Source of the DNA: Escherichia phage I29
Strand: one strand, 5' to 3'
Length of the DNA: 64,000 bases
Sequence record: ON286975
The translations under genes were made by a program, and so were the position numbers. Shown here in pieces: positions 43,987 to 50,071 of the stretch. Below the pieces are notes generated by a model. It searched no databases and was not told the origin of the DNA. It saw only the letters and a program-made list of their open reading frames with translations. How positions within the stretch are numbered: the first letter of the stretch is position 1; each line of letters begins with the position of its first letter.

Positions 43987-44072
43987 GCCGGGGCAACAGG
44001 GGCCGGGAGACAATCACCGGGGGTGCCCGTTATTCTGCAAACGAGAATGATTATCATTCAAAATTCTAAATG
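43987..44072 (+). ncRNA. candidate small RNA unit 2
   Basis: Paralogue of unit 1: shared GGGAGACAA(C/T)CACCGGGG and GAGAA(C/T)G(G/A)TTATCATT; mini-ORF MIIIQNSK at 44046-44072. Confidence 0.3.
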
Positions 44073-44169
44073 AGAACTCCTCGCATTTAATAAATTTAAT
44101 TAGCGTGCTAATTACCCTCCGTAACAATTTCCTATAAAACAGTATCCCATAAAATATTCCCATATAGAA

Positions 44170-44350
44170 ATTTTAAAAATCCATTTCTGAAAACGAAAAA
44201 TCGATTTCGTTCCCAAAAATTTCAGGTCGAGCTCCGGAACGATTTCCAGAAAATCCGATTCAGAAAACGAAAAACAGATCGAGTACTGAGAAATTTATCG
44301 AGAAAAATTTTCAGAAAATTCAATCTTTGAAACGAAAAACAGATCGAGTA
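44170..44350. repeat. degenerate tandem repeats (about 3 copies, 65-75 bp period)
   Basis: Cores GAAAACGAAAAA(T/C)(C/A)GAT... at 44188, 44262, 44328; copy 1 carries inverted repeat AACGAAA/TTTCGTT. Confidence 0.6.
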
Positions 44351-44596
44351 CCCGGAAAGCTGTACCGCAACCTCAAGATAGTGGTTAGACTATTACCATA
44401 AAAAGTCAAGGGTAAGTGGAGGAAGTTCTAGTAGAAGGATGTGAGCATGTGCGGGAAATCTGTAGTGGTGGTCTGGAATATGGTGCAAACGATAGGATGA
44501 GCGATTCAGCTTGTCGCGCCTACTCTGAAAAATCCATTTTAGTTTTCGATCCATTTTCTGATTTTCTAAGAATTTTAAAATATCTGGTCCGGTGAA

Positions 44597-44631
44597 ATAT
44601 CAAAAGGAGGAAATCCATTTTAGAAATCCTC
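44597..44631 (-). terminator. intrinsic terminator (minus strand)
   Basis: ggagga-(15 nt)-tcctcc followed on the minus strand by TTTTGATATTT; 3' of gene 44664-44996. Confidence 0.55.
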
Positions 44632-44663
44632 CTGATCTCTAGCAACCTGATAACTTAAAAATA

Positions 44664-44996
44664 TCAGGTGCCCAGTTTGTTCTTTCCTTTATACAACCGT
44701 AAGGGTATAGTTTTTGTAACAGTCCATCTCCCCAGCCCTTCCCAGTTCCAGTTGTAGGCATGGTACCCGGTTACGCATGCACTGCTAGAGTGGTCATAGG
44801 CATAAGAGAACGCTATACGCACCAAATGGAACCAGTCTTTCCACGGTTGTGGTCCGTAAGCTTTTCTCCAACACCGACACAAACTAAATGTCTCAAGAAT
44901 AGGTAGGATAACAAATCCATACACCGCCACCAGAATAGCCAGCGCAATGATTGTCAGGAATACATACCCTGCAGTTGAAACGATGATCTCTGTCAT
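44664..44996 (-). CDS. membrane protein
   Basis: N-terminal hydrophobic region EIIVSTAGYVFLTIIALAILVAVYGFVILPIL. Confidence 0.5.
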   Translation of the reverse strand: MTEIIVSTAGYVFLTIIALAILVAVYGFVILPILETFSLCRCWRKAYGPQPWKDWFHLVRIAFSYAYDHSSSACVTGYHAYNWNWEGLGRWTVTKTIPLRLYKGKNKLGT

Positions 44997-45196
44997 TTGT
45001 CGTCCCCTTTCTTACGGATATAGATGTGAGAGCCTGCCTGTATATAAATTTCTCGACCATCTTCTGCAAAGATATGAAATACACGATCACCTTCATACTC
45101 GATACGTGATATCTTCATAATGGTCTTTCCACCTGGGATGCGGATCTCGTCCCCCACAGCGATGTTCCATGCAGATTTAAGCTTAAACATCTGCAC
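44993..45196 (-). CDS. hypothetical protein
   Basis: 67 aa; ATGA coupling. Confidence 0.45.
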   Translation of the reverse strand: MQMFKLKSAWNIAVGDEIRIPGGKTIMKISRIEYEGDRVFHIFAEDGREIYIQAGSHIYIRKKGDDK

Positions 45197-45428
45197 CCTC
45201 CTTTGGGAGCTCTAACTCTGGCATAGCCATATACGCCACAACAGGGTTGTAATCAAAGTAGAAATGACCGTTAATTATCCCAGTTTTGTGAGCATAGTCA
45301 CCAGATCCTGCAAGAACAACCTCGCAAACTCCGAAATCCACCTTGCCATTCTCATCTGCCATGGCTACAATATACTTTCCTAGAGGCATGTTTTTAACGC
45401 CGTCTACAAATGTCCACCCTTTGTTCAT
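45183..45428 (-). CDS. hypothetical protein
   Basis: 81 aa; AGGAG RBS. Confidence 0.45.
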   Translation of the reverse strand: MNKGWTFVDGVKNMPLGKYIVAMADENGKVDFGVCEVVLAGSGDYAHKTGIINGHFYFDYNPVVAYMAMPELELPKEGADV

Positions 45429-45448
45429 ACTTTATCTCCTGCATTCTC

Positions 45449-45781
45449 TTAAGGTAACCAGTAAACAATCTCGCCTTTCAGCTTCATGTCGTTTCCAACA
45501 TAAATTTGCCAGCCATCCATCTTAGCAGCTGCAGGCCCAAAGTCATCCGCACCCCTTACCTCTTTCCAGGTCCCGTAGTCAGGTTGCCAGATGTAAAATC
45601 CACCTTCTTTGTCCCATGCTCCATACACTACGTTTAACAAGTTTCCCATTGCAACAATAGTGGGCCGTGGGAACAATGCATCTACAGATGCGCCACAATA
45701 TTTGGTATCTTTTAAATTGCACTCCCAAAAGATGTCTGCCAGTGTGGCGGCGATAGCTTTACGTCTTTCTAATGTTACCAT
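45449..45781 (-). CDS. hypothetical protein
   Basis: 110 aa on cluster strand. Confidence 0.5.
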   Translation of the reverse strand: MVTLERRKAIAATLADIFWECNLKDTKYCGASVDALFPRPTIVAMGNLLNVVYGAWDKEGGFYIWQPDYGTWKEVRGADDFGPAAAKMDGWQIYVGNDMKLKGEIVYWLP

Positions 45782-45788
45782 ATCATAC

Positions 45789-45980
45789 TCACTTGTTGTT
45801 AATAAGTTCTAAAACTTTCTGTCTTACCTTATCAATATCTGTTGATTCAAAAACTGTACGATATCCCCAACTTTGCCCATAAGAATGGCTGCAATCACCA
45901 TAACACCATTGCTCAATTTGATAGTATTCAAGGAACGGGTGCTGTCTAACTATGATACCGTCCCGGTTAAAAATTACCAT
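45789..45980 (-). CDS. hypothetical protein
   Basis: 63 aa downstream of minus promoter 46012-46039. Confidence 0.45.
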   Translation of the reverse strand: MVIFNRDGIIVRQHPFLEYYQIEQWCYGDCSHSYGQSWGYRTVFESTDIDKVRQKVLELINNK

Positions 45981-46011
45981 AATACATCACTCTCTGTTAG
46001 TTTATGCGTAT

Positions 46012-46039
46012 ATTATACACTGCAGTTTTCAGATGTCAA
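46012..46039 (-). promoter_or_regulatory. sigma70-type promoter (minus strand)
   Basis: Minus strand TTGACA-16-TATAAT. Confidence 0.55.
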
Positions 46040-46043
46040 CCTC

Positions 46044-46238
46044 TTACAGATTGCTCCAGTACAATCGGCATTTACATTTTGGGCAATGAGGTTCTTTTAT
46101 GTAATAACCGTCAGTCTTTGGAACACTTTTTGGTGCAGTTTTAAGATTGTACCTGGTAAAACATCGGAAGCAGGTTACCTCTCCCACCTGTTGATCGTTG
46201 ATCCACTCACCAGAGTAAAGTTCTTTCTTGTTTCTCAT
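46044..46238 (-). CDS. small zinc-ribbon-like protein
   Basis: CFRCF...CPKCKC Cys pairs; start placed at internal MRNKKE after GGGAGAG. Confidence 0.4.
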   Translation of the reverse strand: MRNKKELYSGEWINDQQVGEVTCFRCFTRYNLKTAPKSVPKTDGYYIKEPHCPKCKCRLYWSNL

Positions 46239-46489
46239 AATTCTCTCCCAAATCCTCTGCAATCTTATACCAAAATCTCCAGCCAGAAAGCACACGGGAA
46301 CACTTTGAGGATTGAATCTTTACTTGGCTCGGAAGTTCTTTTTCCGTATGGTAGGTAGAAATACCCTCCTGCAGATTCGAATATAGCTCCTTCGGTTGTA
46401 TCTACCACAGCAAGAATTAAGATTTTAGTCTCCACAGTGCTCTCCTCTCTTAGTTGTCGTGGAAACTATATCACCTCAGAAGATGGTCG

Positions 46490-46948
46490 TCAACACTTTT
46501 TGTACTCCACCACGACAATATCTATGTCGAAAGTGGCAAGGTTAATAACGTCCTCTACGTGTTCCCACTTCAAACCGCCTATGCCGCACCCGATCTTAGG
46601 TATGTAGAATGGTAAAGTCGATCCGCTGAATACTTCATTGACTAGCTCAAAGCCTTTCAGGATTGAGAAATACTCAGCATTAGGTCCTGGGTAGAACTGG
46701 GTATATAGATTGATTCCGTAGACAATACCTATCGGAGATAAGTGCTCCCATCGGGAGAACGCACCCAGTTTACTTAGGCAACCGTATCTAGTCTCTTTGT
46801 CGGCTGACAGTGCTTGAGGAAACTCACGGGCAATCTGTTTTGCTATACCCTTGCCCATTGTGTGGAAGCAGTTACAACCGTGGATCAGGTGACCAGCACC
46901 GCTCTTAAAAAGGGAGATTAAATCTCCCTCTACAGTATCAATAATCAC
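46490..46948 (-). CDS. TARG1/OARD1-like macrodomain protein (DarG-type ADP-ribosyl hydrolase fold)
   Basis: GDLISLFKSGAGHLIHGCNCFHTMGKGIAKQIAREF and PKIGCGIGGLKWEHVEDVI match TARG1 GDLF..HCIS.DCRMGAGIA / PRIGCGLDRLQWENV; GTG start coupled to upstream stop. Confidence 0.7.
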   Translation of the reverse strand: MIIDTVEGDLISLFKSGAGHLIHGCNCFHTMGKGIAKQIAREFPQALSADKETRYGCLSKLGAFSRWEHLSPIGIVYGINLYTQFYPGPNAEYFSILKGFELVNEVFSGSTLPFYIPKIGCGIGGLKWEHVEDVINLATFDIDIVVVEYKKC

Positions 46949-47363
46949 GGTAAGCCAGCTCCTCTTCCGCAATTTCAAAAAACTCAGTCCAGCACTGTGG
47001 CATATTGGAGTTACCGAAGTGGCTTTCATAGTAAAGGTTCTTACCGCTAGGAAGGTAGAAATCTGTTACCTCATAAAATCCACAATCGTCGCACTCACCT
47101 TCTTCAAACTTGGCCTTAACCTTAATACCGAGGAAGGTGAAAAGTTTATGGACATCTTCAGTTTCGAACTCCCAGGGAATGTTGTTTTCCGCATCGGTGT
47201 AGAACTGGATCAGCAGACCATTGTCCAGTTTACCAAAATACTCTGTGAAGTAACTTCCTTCCCAGAAATCTTTATGACAAATAATATCCATGCGTTTGCC
47301 CATAATAATGGTGTGAGCGTTTTGGGCATCGTCACGAATCAGTTTTGGCATTTCATAGATCAT
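46938..47363 (-). CDS. hypothetical protein
   Basis: 141 aa; AGGAGAAC RBS. Confidence 0.5.
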   Translation of the reverse strand: MIYEMPKLIRDDAQNAHTIIMGKRMDIICHKDFWEGSYFTEYFGKLDNGLLIQFYTDAENNIPWEFETEDVHKLFTFLGIKVKAKFEEGECDDCGFYEVTDFYLPSGKNLYYESHFGNSNMPQCWTEFFEIAEEELAYRDY

Positions 47364-47431
47364 CTTAGTTCTCCTGGTTCAACAGGTGGTGGCGCTACAG
47401 GAAGATCATAAAACATAGCTATCACAGTCTC

Positions 47432-47629
47432 TTACACAGGAATTGCTTCAAACAGGCCGTTATCTATACCGTCCTTCAGATAGAGATTATATTCTATGTC
47501 GGTATCTGTGTAAAGGGCAGCATCCAGCATTCTATCTGTGAGTCCATCCATTGGGTGGAGAAACCACCACCCACGCCAGTCAAAGTAACAGCCTGGTGCA
47601 TCTTCTCTTACACGGATTCGATAAATCAT
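47432..47629 (-). CDS. hypothetical protein
   Basis: 65 aa; AGGAGG RBS. Confidence 0.45.
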   Translation of the reverse strand: MIYRIRVREDAPGCYFDWRGWWFLHPMDGLTDRMLDAALYTDTDIEYNLYLKDGIDNGLFEAIPV

Positions 47630-47725
47630 GGGCAGTGGCCTCCTGTTAGTTATACATCCCAGTTTTCTTCGTTCATCACGTCCTCCCGTTCTATGAAGTT
47701 ATAATTGCACACCTTTCAATCTGTG

Positions 47726-48142
47726 TCAACAGAAAACTTCAACAAATTCTTCCACAGTTTTAATGTCGTGGGAAAAAGGTTTACGGCTATAACGGGCAAT
47801 AGCACTATCAACCACCGCCCGGTACTCCAAATCTTCAGAATATTTCATGAAGCATTGTAGCGTCTCTGGACAGATAGCTAAATAGCTCCACCACCCCTCT
47901 TCAGATTGGTAGTCGAATCCCATACTCTCCAACCATGAAGCATATACGCCTGCACCCTCAAGCCAGTGAGTATTTTCATCCAGAAACTTGTTAATAGACA
48001 TGTGAGCTTCTAAGCATTTATCCAGCTCCTTTCCGTTAACCAGCCACGCACTGACCGTGGCGCATCCAAGGTCTACAGATTGAGTTGACAGGTTGTATTG
48101 GTCATAGTTCTCAGGCTTAACAATGATATCTTCTAATGTCAT
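47726..48142 (-). CDS. hypothetical protein
   Basis: 138 aa; AGGAGA RBS. Confidence 0.5.
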   Translation of the reverse strand: MTLEDIIVKPENYDQYNLSTQSVDLGCATVSAWLVNGKELDKCLEAHMSINKFLDENTHWLEGAGVYASWLESMGFDYQSEEGWWSYLAICPETLQCFMKYSEDLEYRAVVDSAIARYSRKPFSHDIKTVEEFVEVFC

Positions 48143-48161
48143 TTTTCAGATCTCCTTATAC

Positions 48162-48189
48162 AAAAATGCCCCACCCTTTCGGGCAGGGC
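48162..48189 (-). terminator. intrinsic terminator with GAAA loop (minus strand)
   Basis: gccctgccc-gaaa-gggtggggc then TTTTT on minus strand; same 22-mer recurs at 59796-59817. Confidence 0.6.
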
Positions 48190-48204
48190 TATGTCAGTTA
48201 GGTG

Positions 48205-48828
48205 CTAAAAGTATTCATAGAGGTATCCATCGGGAGCTGGAATTTTTTCATGAATGTAGTAATCAACACATATTCCGGTTTCTCTTCTACAAGAATTGTG
48301 GGATACCCATTCTTTAAGAACGTTGCCATTCATGTCCAGCCTCCTTACATTTTTACACCGTCTACCGCTGGTGCTTCTATGCAACAGAATATCCTCCGTC
48401 TGCTTGTCTTTATTTTCTCCCCAGGTCGTTAAACGGATATTATCAAAAGAGTACCCTTTGAAATCATCTATCCTATCACAAGAAGGCTTTTTCCTTTTGT
48501 CGTATCCGCTGGCTACCCACTGATCATACAACTCTTTGTAACCGTTCAGGTATAGCCACTCCTTAAACTCCTTTTTGGTGTAAGTAGGAGGCGGGTGACC
48601 TCTCTTCTTACTGTTGCACTTTTGAGTCTTGTACAACACGCGGATAACACCTTTTTCTGAAGAGTCGTGGGAAAATTGGTCAGCCTCCCTGCTGGCCTTC
48701 TTACAACACTCTTTGCACTTATTAAGATGACCGTCAGACATCTTTGGGTGTTTGTAGAACTCGGAGAGGTTTTTCACCTCTCCGCACTTGATGCACCTCT
48801 TACAATGCGTGGATTCTACTTTTGCCAT
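48205..48828 (-). CDS. putative HNH-like homing endonuclease (degenerate), Cys-rich N-terminus
   Basis: N-terminal [10 protein letters not shown]...[11 protein letters not shown] zinc-finger-like; C-terminal [15 protein letters not shown] resembles HNH NLxLVT..EN; start at MAKVESTHC overlapping SSB-like 3' end. Confidence 0.35.
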
Positions 48829-50071
48829 ATTGCAAACCCACCGGAGCGAAAGGTATGTCATCACAGAAGTCATACTGTGCTGGATTCTGATCCATTGGGT
48901 CATCTTCCTCATCATTTACAGGAGGAGCGTCTACAGTGTTTTGCTGTGGAGCTGCTTCCTGTTTGGCAGCCTGGGGTTCTTGATAGTCAGTTGACCCAGC
49001 ACCGTTCTTGATCCAATCGTACAACGGCTCAGCCAGATTAGTCAAGACATCTTTTGCTTCTGCAGTAATTGCCGCTGCAAAATCATCAACTTTCGTTTTC
49101 TTGTCAATACGGCGACAAGCGTTCAACACCGCATTGCCGACACTGGCACCTACTTCATCTTCAGTTCGGTTGGTGGCTTGAGCATACTCTTTCTTAAGCT
49201 CAATGGTGACTACGTGCAGTGTTTTAGCCACGCCTAGTGGGTCGTCCACCTTAAACCCGCGATCCAGGATGATCTGCAACGCATTGATGCTATGTCCCGT
49301 CTCCACACCGATAGGGTCGTAAGAGGATTTACGCTTGCCACCAGAGCCTTGAGTGCCGTTCTCTGCCTTAGGAGGATAGGCCTTGAAACCACTGATAATG
49401 TTTCCGGTGTCTTTGTCAACAATGGCTGCAACACGACCACCTACCACCAGGTCTTTAAGCTGCTCATCAGTGACAACCATAGCACCTTCGCCAATCTTGT
49501 GGTCATTAACAGTAACCACGTTGCCAACAATCTGAGTCACATCACCATAGATGCGTAAAACGTCTTGATTGGCATTCTGCTGAGGTTTCTGCTTCTGGCC
49601 TTGTGATTGTGCACCTTGTTGCTGTTTTTGCTGCTGAGTCGCTGCTGGAGCCTCTCCTGCACCCAGCTTAACCATCTTAGCCAGTGAGCCTTTGTAATAG
49701 GTCTTACCGTTATGCTCGTTTGCCTTCAAAGGGATATTTACGATCCATCCTGGCGTTACGGTTTCCCACTTGTCATCAATCTTAACAGAGACAGAGTCTT
49801 GATGACCCGGTTTAAGCAGTTTATCACCCATGCTGATCCAGACTTCTTCACCACCTTGAAGCAGGTTATCAGAGGAATCCAGTTCAGAAATCAGTAAAGA
49901 GATGGTGTGGCTGGATTCAATTTTCTTACCTTGCCACACAGTGGTTTTAATACCTGTTGTAGGATCAGCACCTTTGATAGGCTTGATGCTGACACGTTTA
50001 ATCATGCCGTGAGCCAGTAAAACAGTTTCACGCGGATTCATCGGGTTAGCGAATTGTTGAATAACGCTCAT
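48800..50071 (-). CDS. SSB-like protein (OB-fold N-terminus, Gln-rich linker, acidic DDIPF tail)
   Basis: Acidic tail ...[22 protein letters not shown] resembles SSB C-terminal DDDIPF but is followed by 15 more residues overlapping the HNH-like gene. Confidence 0.5.

What the first reader, a model, noticed from the sequence alone, without database searches (positions are those of the whole stretch)
46490..46948. TARG1/DarG-like macrodomain protein: candidate reversal of ADP-ribosylation
The 152-aa product has the TARG1/OARD1-type signature (GDLxS...HLIHGCNCFHTMGKGIA...F and PKIGCGIGGLKWEHV), the same macrodomain subtype as the DarG antitoxin, which removes ADP-ribose from DNA. A phage copy could counter DarT-type ADP-ribosylation of phage DNA or other ADP-ribosylating defences.
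Basis: partly seen in the sequence, partly recalled or inferred. Interest (0 to 1): 0.6.

Follow-up and report, generated by a model that had tools for sequence, protein, structure and literature searches.

The report
Phage macrodomain, likely anti-DarT2 factor
This rV5-like coliphage gene encodes a small ADP-ribose-removing (macrodomain) enzyme related to phage T4's Tk.4/AdfM, which protects T4 from the bacterial DarTG2 defence, so it is a sound but unsurprising new member of a recently described class of phage counter-defence genes.

Summary
Window 46490-46948 (minus strand, GTG start) encodes a 152-aa macrodomain with all the quoted motifs. It is conserved and under purifying selection in rV5-like phages; the window is 99.9% identical to Shigella phage CM1.

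The predicted fold (pLDDT 97) best matches the TARG1/DarG/Poa1p/SCO6735 (ALC1-like) macrodomain class. The protein is a full-length homologue (39% identity, E 3e-41) of T4 Tk.4. A November 2025 preprint renamed Tk.4 AdfM after a knockout made T4 sensitive to DarTG2.

Three refinements:
- It is not a DarG or TARG1 orthologue. It has no DarT-binding domain and no adjacent darT.
- The catalytic Lys (DarG K80, TARG1 K84) is an invariant Gln (Q84, motif N-x-Y-T-Q).
- SCO6735, which removes ADP-ribose from thymidine in DNA, also has an essential Gln at this position. The PhiKZ protein also named AdfM keeps the Lys and belongs to a separate lineage.

The Bas54 orthologue (83% identical) is dispensable on E. 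coli K-12, as expected for an accessory counter-defence gene. Verdict: new member of a known kind, with modest interest.

The parts
46490..46948 (-). Coding sequence of the 152-aa stand-alone macrodomain protein (GTG start, TGA stop); orthologue of T4 Tk.4/AdfM and of bas54_0092
46841..46882 (-). Residues 23-36, HGCNCFHTMGKGIA. Contains the invariant Asn26, equivalent to PhiKZ AdfM N23 (the N23A mutant has reduced activity), and the Gly-rich phosphate-binding loop 1 (G34 and A36 invariant)
   Evidence: PMC13309987
46697..46711 (-). Residues 80-84, N-L-Y-T-Q. Gln84 (codon 46699-46697) occupies the column of catalytic Lys80 of DarG, Lys84 of TARG1 and Gln85 of SCO6735. It is Gln in 67/67 and in 137/138 family members
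   Evidence: PMC9411070
46574..46600 (-). Residues 117-125, PKIGCGIGG: diphosphate-binding loop 2. Gly124 sits where TARG1 has catalytic Asp125
46959..46968 (-). Shine-Dalgarno-like GGAAGAGGAG, 10 nt upstream of the GTG start, inside the end of the upstream ORF
   Evidence: read directly from the sequence
46938..47363 (-). Upstream 141-aa ORF of unknown function (PHROG 8157). Its last 11 nt overlap the macrodomain start, so the two are probably co-transcribed and translationally coupled
47486..47514 (-). Sigma-70-like promoter match (TTTACA-17-TATAAT, 11/12) upstream of the two-gene unit. This is a consensus match only; it suggests early, host-polymerase transcription

Best explanation
The gene encodes a stand-alone macrodomain of the ALC1/TARG1-like class. 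It is the Vequintavirinae orthologue of phage T4 Tk.4 (AdfM) and most likely acts as an 'orphan antitoxin'. It appears to be made early in infection, from a run of small minus-strand genes carrying sigma-70-like promoter matches. It binds the ADP-ribose that the host toxin DarT2 attaches to thymidine in single-stranded phage DNA and hydrolyses the ribose-base bond, so phage replication can continue in DarTG2-carrying E. coli.

Shown here: the fold, the class, an intact ADP-ribose-binding pocket, the homology to T4 Tk.4, and that the gene is accessory.

Inferred: the substrate (thymidine-linked ADP-ribose on DNA) and the defence countered (DarTG2), both transferred from T4 genetics.

Inferred by analogy: the chemistry. 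The catalytic Lys of DarG and TARG1 is replaced by an invariant Gln84. Catalysis, if it occurs, probably follows the Lys-independent route proposed for SCO6735, in which the equivalent Gln85 positions the distal ribose and a water molecule.
For: (1) Macrodomain family: Pfam Macro scores above its gathering threshold. The AF2 model has pLDDT 97.1 and pTM 0.91.
(3) Homology to T4 Tk.4: 39% identity over the full length, E 3e-41, same PHROG 335, shared NLYTQF-PGPN and HGCNCFHTMG motifs.
(4) T4 tk.4 was the single significant HIDEN-SEQ hit on a DarTG2 host, and a clean knockout was sensitised. It is otherwise non-essential.
(5) Precedent for the chemistry: SCO6735 has Gln85 at this column, cleaves thymidine-linked ADP-ribose from DNA, and Q85A is inactive.
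(6) Precedent for the strategy: PhiKZ AdfM removes DarT2-made ADP-ribose from DNA in vitro, and phage NADARs do the same against DarTG1, including in Vequintavirinae.
(7) Pocket residues are invariant or nearly so in the 67-sequence alignment: G24, N26, G34, A36, N80, Q84, P117 and G120 invariant, G8, G122 and G125 in at least 90%, and D9 in 52 of 67 (Asn in 12). Those tabulated among the 138 representatives are 97-99% conserved, and there residue 124 splits Ala 72 / Gly 66.
(8) Accessory, selected gene: bas54_0092 (83% identical) tolerates insertions at 31/31 TA sites on K-12. dN/dS is 0.11-0.14.
Against: There is no experiment on this protein or on any Vequintavirinae orthologue against DarTG2; two searches found none. 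The T4 evidence is genetic, comes from one preprint, and has no biochemistry; searches found no in vitro assay of a Tk.4-type protein. Identity to T4 Tk.4 is only 39%, and macrodomain substrate specificity shifts easily. The catalytic Lys of DarG and TARG1 is absent. The longer Lys-bearing loop that SCO6735 uses for DNA is not present here either (QFYPGPN versus QHGMKTGSKGAP). Databases label the family 'phosphatase' (Poa1p-like), and His23 and Thr30 match Poa1p's H23 and S30. Cellular relatives are not next to DarT, so an origin from DarG is not demonstrated.
Confidence: 0.6

Rival explanations
1. It acts on ADP-ribose metabolites, as the database label 'phosphatase' implies. It would work like yeast Poa1p (ADP-ribose-1''-phosphate phosphatase) or as an O-acetyl-ADP-ribose deacetylase, clearing small ADP-ribose derivatives rather than repairing DNA.
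Against: The label is inherited from the old domain name (A1pp), not from an assay. The family profile matches Poa1p less well (3.9e-14) than DarG, BT1257, SCO6735 or TARG1. Poa1p has Ser, not Gln, at the catalytic column in the phmmer alignment. The only phenotype known for a family member is loss of DarTG2 resistance. No obvious source of ADP-ribose-1''-phosphate is known in infected E. coli (my own knowledge, not tested here).
Confidence: 0.1
2. It is a de-ADP-ribosylase for a different substrate. Candidates are proteins or RNA modified by other host ADP-ribosylating defences or toxins, or targets of phage-encoded ADP-ribosyltransferases whose marks need to be limited.
For: TARG1 and SCO6735 act on several substrate types, including proteins, RNA and DNA phosphate ends and thymidine-linked ADP-ribose. 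About 5% of phage records carry a homologue, and 1,306 cluster representatives match at E<=1e-10. That spread is broader than one might expect for a single defence. Cellular relatives sit in housekeeping contexts with no DarT nearby.
Against: T4 carries Tk.4 yet is strongly restricted by CmdTAC, which ADP-ribosylates mRNA, so that substrate is apparently not reversed. In the T4 screen tk.4 was specific to the DarTG2 condition. No ADP-ribosyltransferase was annotated in the parts of the relatives' genomes examined, though no dedicated search for one was made.
Confidence: 0.15
3. It protects without catalysis. It would either bind and block DarT2 directly (interaction-inhibition) or sequester an ADP-ribose-containing molecule, the Gln for Lys change having abolished hydrolysis.
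For: The catalytic Lys of DarG and TARG1 is missing. Catalytically dead SCO6735 Q85A, DarG K80A and TARG1 K84A still inhibit DarT in vitro. ICP1 AdfB neutralises DarT, likely through direct interaction.
Against: Gln at this column is needed for hydrolysis in SCO6735. Its near-absolute conservation here (67/67 and 137/138), along with Asn26 and both phosphate loops, is the pattern of an active site, not a decayed one. The protein lacks any counterpart of DarG's DarT-binding C-terminal domain.
Confidence: 0.1

Closest known systems
Phage T4 Tk.4 = AdfM (anti-DarT factor Macrodomain; bioRxiv 10.1101/2025.11.20.689424)
   Same: Full-length homologue: 39% identity, E 3e-41, 152 vs 155 aa, same PHROG 335. 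Both are stand-alone macrodomains with the same HGCNCFHTMG, NLYTQF-PGPN and P-x-IG-x-GIG motifs, including Gln at the catalytic column. Both lie in an early or accessory gene cluster, overlap the upstream gene, and are dispensable in the laboratory.
   Different: Different phage family (Vequintavirinae vs Straboviridae) and different neighbours (T4: vs and tk.3; here: ORFs of unknown function). 61% of residues differ. The anti-DarTG2 phenotype has been shown only for T4, and neither protein has published biochemistry.
Streptomyces coelicolor SCO6735 (PDB 5e3b) and Bacteroides BT1257 (2afc/2fg1)
   Same: ALC1/TARG1-like class, stand-alone, about 150 aa, not paired with DarT. Gln sits at the catalytic column (SCO6735 Gln85 is essential) and the TARG1 Asp is absent. 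SCO6735 hydrolyses thymidine-linked ADP-ribose on DNA.
   Different: Only 23-27% identity. The motif is M-I-G-Q-H-G rather than L-Y-T-Q-F. SCO6735 and BT1257 have a longer loop after the Gln, which in SCO6735 carries Lys89 and Lys94 for DNA binding; that loop is short here. They are cellular, DNA-damage-linked proteins rather than phage counter-defence genes.
DarG, the antitoxin of DarTG2 (PDB 5m3i, 5m31, 7omu)
   Different: No C-terminal DarT-binding domain (152 aa vs about 340-400; only HMM positions 3-141 of 338 are matched). NCBIfam score is 46.8 against a cutoff of 250. Catalytic Lys80 is replaced by Gln. No adjacent darT.
PhiKZ gp104 'AdfM' (chimallivirus DarG2-like macrodomain; Cell Rep 2026, PMC13309987)
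   Same: Phage-encoded stand-alone macrodomain of the same class, shown to remove DarT2-made ADP-ribose from DNA and to protect against DarTG2. The functionally important Asn (N23) is conserved as Asn26 here.
   Different: Only about 20% identity (E 1e-4). It keeps the DarG-type F-P-T-K motif (catalytic Lys) and is imported into the phage nucleus. It is a separate acquisition that was independently given the same name.
Human TARG1/OARD1 (PDB 4j5r)
   Same: Best Foldseek match (E 4.9e-10, TM 0.78/0.84). Similar length, with shared G-D-L and IGCG-x-x-x-L-x-W-E-x-V motifs.
   Different: The catalytic dyad Lys84/Asp125 is Gln84/Gly124 here. TARG1 also lacks the conserved Asn (it has Ser at that column).

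Membership tests
Macrodomain superfamily (Pfam PF01661) | Sequence match above Pfam's gathering score | tested here: met
   28 bits against a cutoff of 22, E 2.2e-6
Macrodomain superfamily (Pfam PF01661) | Three-layer alpha/beta/alpha macro fold | tested here: met
ALC1/TARG1-like macrodomain class (TARG1, DarG, Poa1p, SCO6735) | Closer in structure and sequence to this class than to MacroD, macroH2A, PARG or viral classes | tested here: met
TARG1/OARD1 | Catalytic dyad Lys84 and Asp125 | tested here: not met
   The aligned residues are Gln84 and Gly124. The dyad is as defined in PMC9411070.
DarG (DarTG2 antitoxin) | Catalytic Lys80 in the P-T-K motif | tested here: not met
   Y-T-Q aligns to P-T-K of Mtb DarG. 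Gln in 67/67 and 137/138 relatives.
DarG (DarTG2 antitoxin) | Second, C-terminal DarT-binding domain; full-length match to the DarG equivalog model | tested here: not met
   The protein is 152 aa. NCBIfam NF048014 scores 46.8 bits against a cutoff of 250 and matches positions 3-141 of 338. The PADLOC DarG model matches 4-142 of 329.
DarG (DarTG2 antitoxin) | Encoded next to a darT toxin gene | tested here: not met
   Neighbours have no Pfam or PADLOC match to DarT. tblastn with P. aeruginosa DarT2 finds nothing in the window; the only matches, at E 1.5 to 8.7 (noise), are in three cellular loci. Sensitivity is limited to a single query sequence.
T4 Tk.4/AdfM family (PHROG 335) | Full-length homology and shared motifs with T4 Tk.4 | tested here: met
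   39% identity, E 3e-41, residues 1-150 to 1-152. PHROG 335 E 2e-59. Motifs shared.
T4 Tk.4/AdfM family (PHROG 335) | Gene is conditionally required on hosts carrying DarTG2 and dispensable otherwise | not testable with these tools
   Only the 'dispensable otherwise' half is documented for the subfamily: bas54_0092 has 31/31 TA sites hit. Bas54 was not screened on DarTG2 as far as the text shows.
T4 Tk.4/AdfM family (PHROG 335) | Hydrolysis of thymidine-linked ADP-ribose on ssDNA | not testable with these tools
   No published assay for any Tk.4-type protein was found.
SCO6735-type (Lys-independent) DNA de-ADP-ribosylases | Gln at the position of the catalytic Lys | tested here: met
   Gln84 aligns with SCO6735 Gln85. 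That residue is chain index 105; the 20-residue tag offset used to equate it with native Gln85 is assumed, not confirmed by a tool. Q85A is inactive.
SCO6735-type (Lys-independent) DNA de-ADP-ribosylases | Extended mobile loop after the Gln carrying Lys89 and Lys94, used for DNA binding | tested here: not met
   The loop here is six to seven residues shorter (QFYPG------PNA vs QHGMKTGSKG-AP) and has no Lys.
Poa1p-type ADP-ribose-1''-phosphate phosphatase | Residues probed in Poa1p structures (His23, Ser30, Phe152) | tested here: inconclusive
   His23 is conserved (66/67) and Thr30 aligns with Ser30. The C-terminal Phe152 region aligns poorly. His23 is also present in SCO6735, BT1257 and TARG1, so it does not discriminate.

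The most novel reading that the evidence does not exclude
The Tk.4-type proteins, including this one, would form a distinct and very large phage-borne clade of DNA de-ADP-ribosylases defined by an invariant N-x-Y-T-Q motif. They would work without the DarG/TARG1 catalytic lysine. They would have arisen separately from the Lys-type PhiKZ 'AdfM', and perhaps from stand-alone cellular macrodomains rather than from DarG. They might erase more than DarT2 marks, for example other base- or phosphate-linked nucleic-acid ADP-ribosylation. On this reading, roughly 5% of sequenced phages carry a broad-spectrum eraser with chemistry not yet characterised.
Probability: 0.3. Interest if true: 0.5.

Novelty: new member of a known kind. 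Interest (0 to 1): 0.3.

Why it matters
DarTG systems stop phages by ADP-ribosylating their DNA. Knowing which phages carry erasers helps predict host range, which matters for therapeutic use of broad-host-range rV5-like phages. This gene extends the Tk.4/AdfM type of counter-defence to the Vequintavirinae, where it is still annotated as 'hypothetical protein' or 'phosphatase'. The analysis also shows that two unrelated lineages share the name AdfM: a Lys-type in PhiKZ and a Gln-type in T4 and rV5-like phages. The Gln-type is large (1,306 cluster representatives at E<=1e-10) and has no published biochemistry. That gives a clear target for mechanistic work on Lys-independent DNA de-ADP-ribosylation.

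Tried and rejected
1. Second ADP-ribose eraser in the window. I looked for the NADAR (AdfN^Bas60-type) reported in some Vequintavirinae. Ten NADAR-sized ORFs gave no NADAR hit. Either it lies outside this window or this phage lacks it; I did not pursue it further.
2. Functional hints from neighbours. Pfam and PHROG scans of ten flanking ORFs found only families of unknown function, an endonuclease VII/HNH and a phage zinc-binding domain.
3. 'Captured DarG' origin. The genome scan with the full alignment failed because no stretch was conserved enough. A tighter alignment found 31 cellular loci. Neighbour clustering found no shared partner, and tblastn with P. aeruginosa DarT2 found nothing. So there is no evidence of DarT linkage, though the DarT search was of low sensitivity.
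4. Fusion partners. Pfam on eight longer family members showed only the macro domain.
5. Literature. I found no biochemistry on Tk.4-type proteins and no DarTG2 tests on Vequintavirinae.
6. CmdTAC as an alternative target. I rejected this because T4, which carries Tk.4, remains strongly restricted by CmdTAC.
7. Longer 179-aa ORF from the ATG at 47029. I rejected this in favour of the GTG start, on the RBS, the homologue N-termini and the annotations.
8. tRNA scan of the window: none found.
9. Not done. I could not inspect the active-site geometry of the model because the tools do not expose coordinates. I made no dedicated search for phage-encoded ADP-ribosyltransferases in the rest of the genome.

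Full report
OBSERVATION

The ORF is real and lies at the stated coordinates, on the minus strand. It runs from GTG at 46948-46946 to TGA at 46492-46490 and encodes 152 aa. All quoted motifs are present: GDLIS (8-12), HLIHGCNCFHTMGKGIA (20-36) and PKIGCGIGGLKWEHV (117-131).

The mechanical ORF continues up to an ATG at 47029, but several things support the GTG start:
- A GGAAGAGGAG Shine-Dalgarno sequence (46968-46959) lies 10 nt upstream.
- Relatives annotate a 459-nt gene.
- The N-terminus aligns with that of T4 Tk.4.

The start overlaps the last 11 nt of the upstream 141-aa ORF (46938-47363). A sigma-70-like promoter match (11/12) lies upstream of that ORF at 47514-47486. Such matches are consensus hits only.

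GENOMIC SETTING

The window is an rV5-like Vequintavirus. Bases 44000-50000 are 99.9% identical to Shigella phage CM1, and 111 of the 124 matching phage records cover at least 80% of that segment at mostly 90-99% identity. The gene lies in a long run of small minus-strand genes. These follow the rIIA/rIIB, helicase, primase and DNA polymerase genes on the same strand, so they are transcriptionally downstream of them.

It is a genuine, selected gene:
- dN/dS is 0.11-0.14 against rV5_ev168 and JES2013, though the counts are small.
- 116 phage records carry a copy at 80% protein identity or more.
- Databases call it 'macro domain protein', 'phosphatase' or 'hypothetical protein'.

WHAT THE PROTEIN IS

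- Pfam Macro scores above its gathering threshold (28 vs 22 bits).
- PHROG 335 ('phosphatase') gives E 2e-59.
- The NCBIfam DarG equivalog scores 46.8 bits, far below its 250-bit cutoff, and matches only the macrodomain part (positions 3-141 of 338). The PADLOC DarG model behaves the same way.
- An AlphaFold2 model built on a 67-sequence alignment is very confident (pLDDT 97.1, pTM 0.91).
- Foldseek ranks TARG1 first (E 4.9e-10, TM 0.78/0.84), then Poa1p, Thermus aquaticus and M. tuberculosis DarG, BT1257 and SCO6735.

LINK TO KNOWN FUNCTION

The protein aligns end to end with T4 Tk.4 (39% identity, E 3e-41).

A November 2025 preprint (10.1101/2025.11.20.689424) found tk.4 to be the only significant hit when a saturated T4 transposon library was grown on a DarTG2-expressing host. 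It confirmed that a clean knockout is sensitised and renamed the gene adfM. tk.4 is otherwise non-essential, with 45 of 46 TA sites hit.

The same study mapped essentiality in Bas54 (phage MaxBurger), which is a Vequintavirinae. Its orthologue bas54_0092 is 83% identical to the window protein and was hit at 31 of 31 TA sites, so it is 'Non-essential' on K-12. Bas54 does not appear to have been screened on DarTG2.

Independently, a 2026 Cell Reports paper (PMC13309987) showed that PhiKZ gp104, a stand-alone DarG-like macrodomain, removes DarT2-made ADP-ribose from DNA in vitro. It also protects PhiKZ from DarTG2. That paper also named its protein AdfM.

The phage-encoded orphan eraser is thus an established strategy. 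It parallels the NADAR proteins (AdfN) that counter DarTG1, which also occur in some Vequintavirinae.

ACTIVE SITE: WHERE THE PROTEIN DEPARTS FROM DarG AND TARG1

Profile-to-PDB alignments and a seven-sequence MAFFT alignment agree on the column that holds the catalytic Lys of TARG1 (K84, L-I-T-K-K) and DarG (K80, F-P-T-K-K).
- In the window protein it is Gln84 (L-Y-T-Q-F), and also in T4 Tk.4.
- In SCO6735 and BT1257 it is also Gln (M-I-G-Q-H-G).
- PhiKZ gp104 keeps Lys (F-P-T-K-D).
- TARG1's Asp125 is Gly124 here, as in DarG.

Gln84 is present in 67 of 67 homologues from the word-indexed search. It is also present in 137 of 138 independent representatives from the exhaustive search, a set not chosen by motif. 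Asn26 is equally conserved; it is equivalent to PhiKZ N23, whose Ala mutant has reduced activity. Both Gly-rich phosphate loops are conserved too.

PMC9411070 shows that SCO6735 lacks both TARG1 catalytic residues yet cleaves thymidine-linked ADP-ribose from DNA. Q85A abolishes that activity. The authors propose a water-mediated, Lys-independent mechanism.

The conservation pattern here is that of a working active site of that kind, not of a decayed one. The analogy has a limit: the longer Lys-bearing loop that SCO6735 uses for DNA binding is absent here.

FAMILY AND ORIGIN

- tblastn finds homologues in 2,717 of 50,697 phage records, including T4-like, rV5-like and many other groups.
- The exhaustive search finds 4,381 cluster representatives at E<=1e-3 and 1,306 at E<=1e-10. 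Nearly all are stand-alone, with a median length of about 156 aa.
- Thirty-one cellular loci were found, mainly in Rhodobacterales and Hyphomicrobiaceae. Nearly all encode stand-alone proteins of about 150-170 aa (one is a 419-aa fusion) carrying the N-A-Y-T-Q motif.
- No neighbour is shared across those loci. In Hyphomicrobiaceae the gene lies between genes I identified by eye from motifs as ileS-like and lspA-like.
- tblastn with a P. aeruginosa DarT2 sequence finds nothing in those loci or in the window. This was a single-sequence, low-sensitivity search.
- Longer family members show no informative fusion partner.

An origin by capture of DarG is therefore not supported. The profile is about equally distant from DarG, BT1257/SCO6735 and TARG1.

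MECHANISM PROPOSED

The protein is probably made early and binds ADP-ribose. The shared G-D motif is conserved, though imperfectly (G8 in 62 of 67, D9 in 52 of 67 with Asn in 12). From my own knowledge of macrodomains, not tested here, the Asp of that motif contacts the adenine. I propose that it hydrolyses the ribose-thymine bond that DarT2 installs on single-stranded phage DNA, which restores replication.

- Shown: fold, class, pocket conservation, homology to Tk.4, accessory status.
- Inferred from T4 genetics: the defence countered.
- Inferred from SCO6735: the role of Gln84.
- Confidence: about 0.6.

RIVALS

(a) A Poa1p-like metabolite phosphatase, as the database label implies. Poa1p is a good structural match and shares the IH-x-CNC motif. 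However, the label is historical, the profile similarity is lower, and the only known phenotype points to DarTG2.

(b) A different macromolecular substrate. This is plausible given the breadth of the family. CmdT-type mRNA modification is unlikely, because T4 remains sensitive to CmdTAC.

(c) Non-catalytic inhibition or sequestration. The missing Lys suggests it, and so does the interaction-inhibition shown by dead mutants of DarG, TARG1 and SCO6735. Strict conservation of the Gln, the Asn and both loops argues against it.

NOVELTY AND VERDICT

The gene is a new, untested member of a kind described in 2025-2026. A specialist would not be surprised by it.

The modest added value is threefold:
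1. It extends the Tk.4/AdfM type to Vequintavirinae, where annotation still says 'hypothetical' or 'phosphatase'.
2. The two proteins named AdfM belong to different lineages with different catalytic residues.
3. The Gln-type clade is large, sharply defined by N-x-Y-T-Q, and has no published biochemistry.

Interest is 0.3.

Noticed in passing
window 46938-47363 (-): A 141-aa ORF of unknown function (PHROG 8157, no Pfam hit). Its stop overlaps the macrodomain gene's GTG start by 11 nt, which suggests translational coupling. Its orthologue bas54_0091 is non-essential. Whether it works together with the macrodomain is unknown.
   Followed up: partly
window 48800-50071 (-): A 423-aa protein of unknown function (PHROG 4477, no Pfam hit) with a Gln-rich low-complexity centre. 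Its orthologue bas54_0087 was scored 'Essential' in HIDEN-SEQ (only 8 of 57 TA sites hit). This is an essential rV5-like gene with no assigned role.
   Followed up: partly
window 48205-48915 (-): An endonuclease VII/HNH-like gene (PHROG 1035). Its mechanical ORF overlaps the upstream 423-aa gene by more than 100 nt, while relatives annotate a shorter 624-nt gene, so the true start is probably internal. The orthologue bas54_0088 is non-essential and is annotated as a homing endonuclease.
   Followed up: no
window 46012-46039 (-), and 46465-46493 (-): A perfect sigma-70 consensus (TTGACA-16-TATAAT, 12/12) lies downstream of the macrodomain gene. A 10/12 match with an extended -10 TG lies immediately after its stop. 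The region has more promoter-like sites than shuffled controls (22 vs 13.2 +/- 3.7), consistent with host-polymerase-driven early genes.
   Followed up: no
window 46044-46295 (-): A small ORF (83 aa) carrying the Pfam 'Phage zinc binding domain' PF23903 (E 1.6e-22), two genes downstream of the macrodomain.
   Followed up: no
literature (PMC13309987 vs bioRxiv 10.1101/2025.11.20.689424); alignment: The name AdfM has been given independently to two proteins. PhiKZ gp104 is Lys-type (F-P-T-K) and T4 Tk.4 is Gln-type (Y-T-Q). PhiKZ gp104 shares only about 20% identity with the window protein (it was not compared with T4 Tk.4 directly). Annotation transfer between the two could mislead on mechanism.
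   Followed up: yes
L007, L008, L011, L012, L013, L024, L030, L034 (cellular loci), about 3.3 kb upstream to 1 kb downstream of the match: In these eight loci, mostly Hyphomicrobiaceae (L030 is Jannaschia, a Rhodobacterales), the Gln-type macrodomain gene follows a roughly 1,100-aa isoleucyl-tRNA-synthetase-like gene. In six of them (L007, L008, L011, L012, L013, L024) a signal-peptidase-II-like gene follows it. This is a housekeeping context, not a toxin-antitoxin pair. The neighbour identities were read by eye from sequence motifs and not confirmed with an HMM.
   Followed up: partly
L035 3263-4522 (+): A Cellvibrionaceae MAG encodes a 419-aa protein with the Gln-type macrodomain at the C-terminus. 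Its roughly 240-aa N-terminal region has no Pfam hit and contains a GGADGAD motif. This may be a fusion with an unrecognised domain, or an over-extended ORF.
   Followed up: partly
L004 16881-17249 (PP925834.1, phage MiataMamis): In this relative the macrodomain gene is annotated as only 369 nt (122 aa). That is either a truncated start call or a real 5' disruption.
   Followed up: no
window, whole: ARAGORN found no tRNA genes. No NADAR (AdfN-type) domain was found among ten NADAR-sized ORFs, although some Vequintavirinae (Bas60-62) are reported to carry one.
   Followed up: partly
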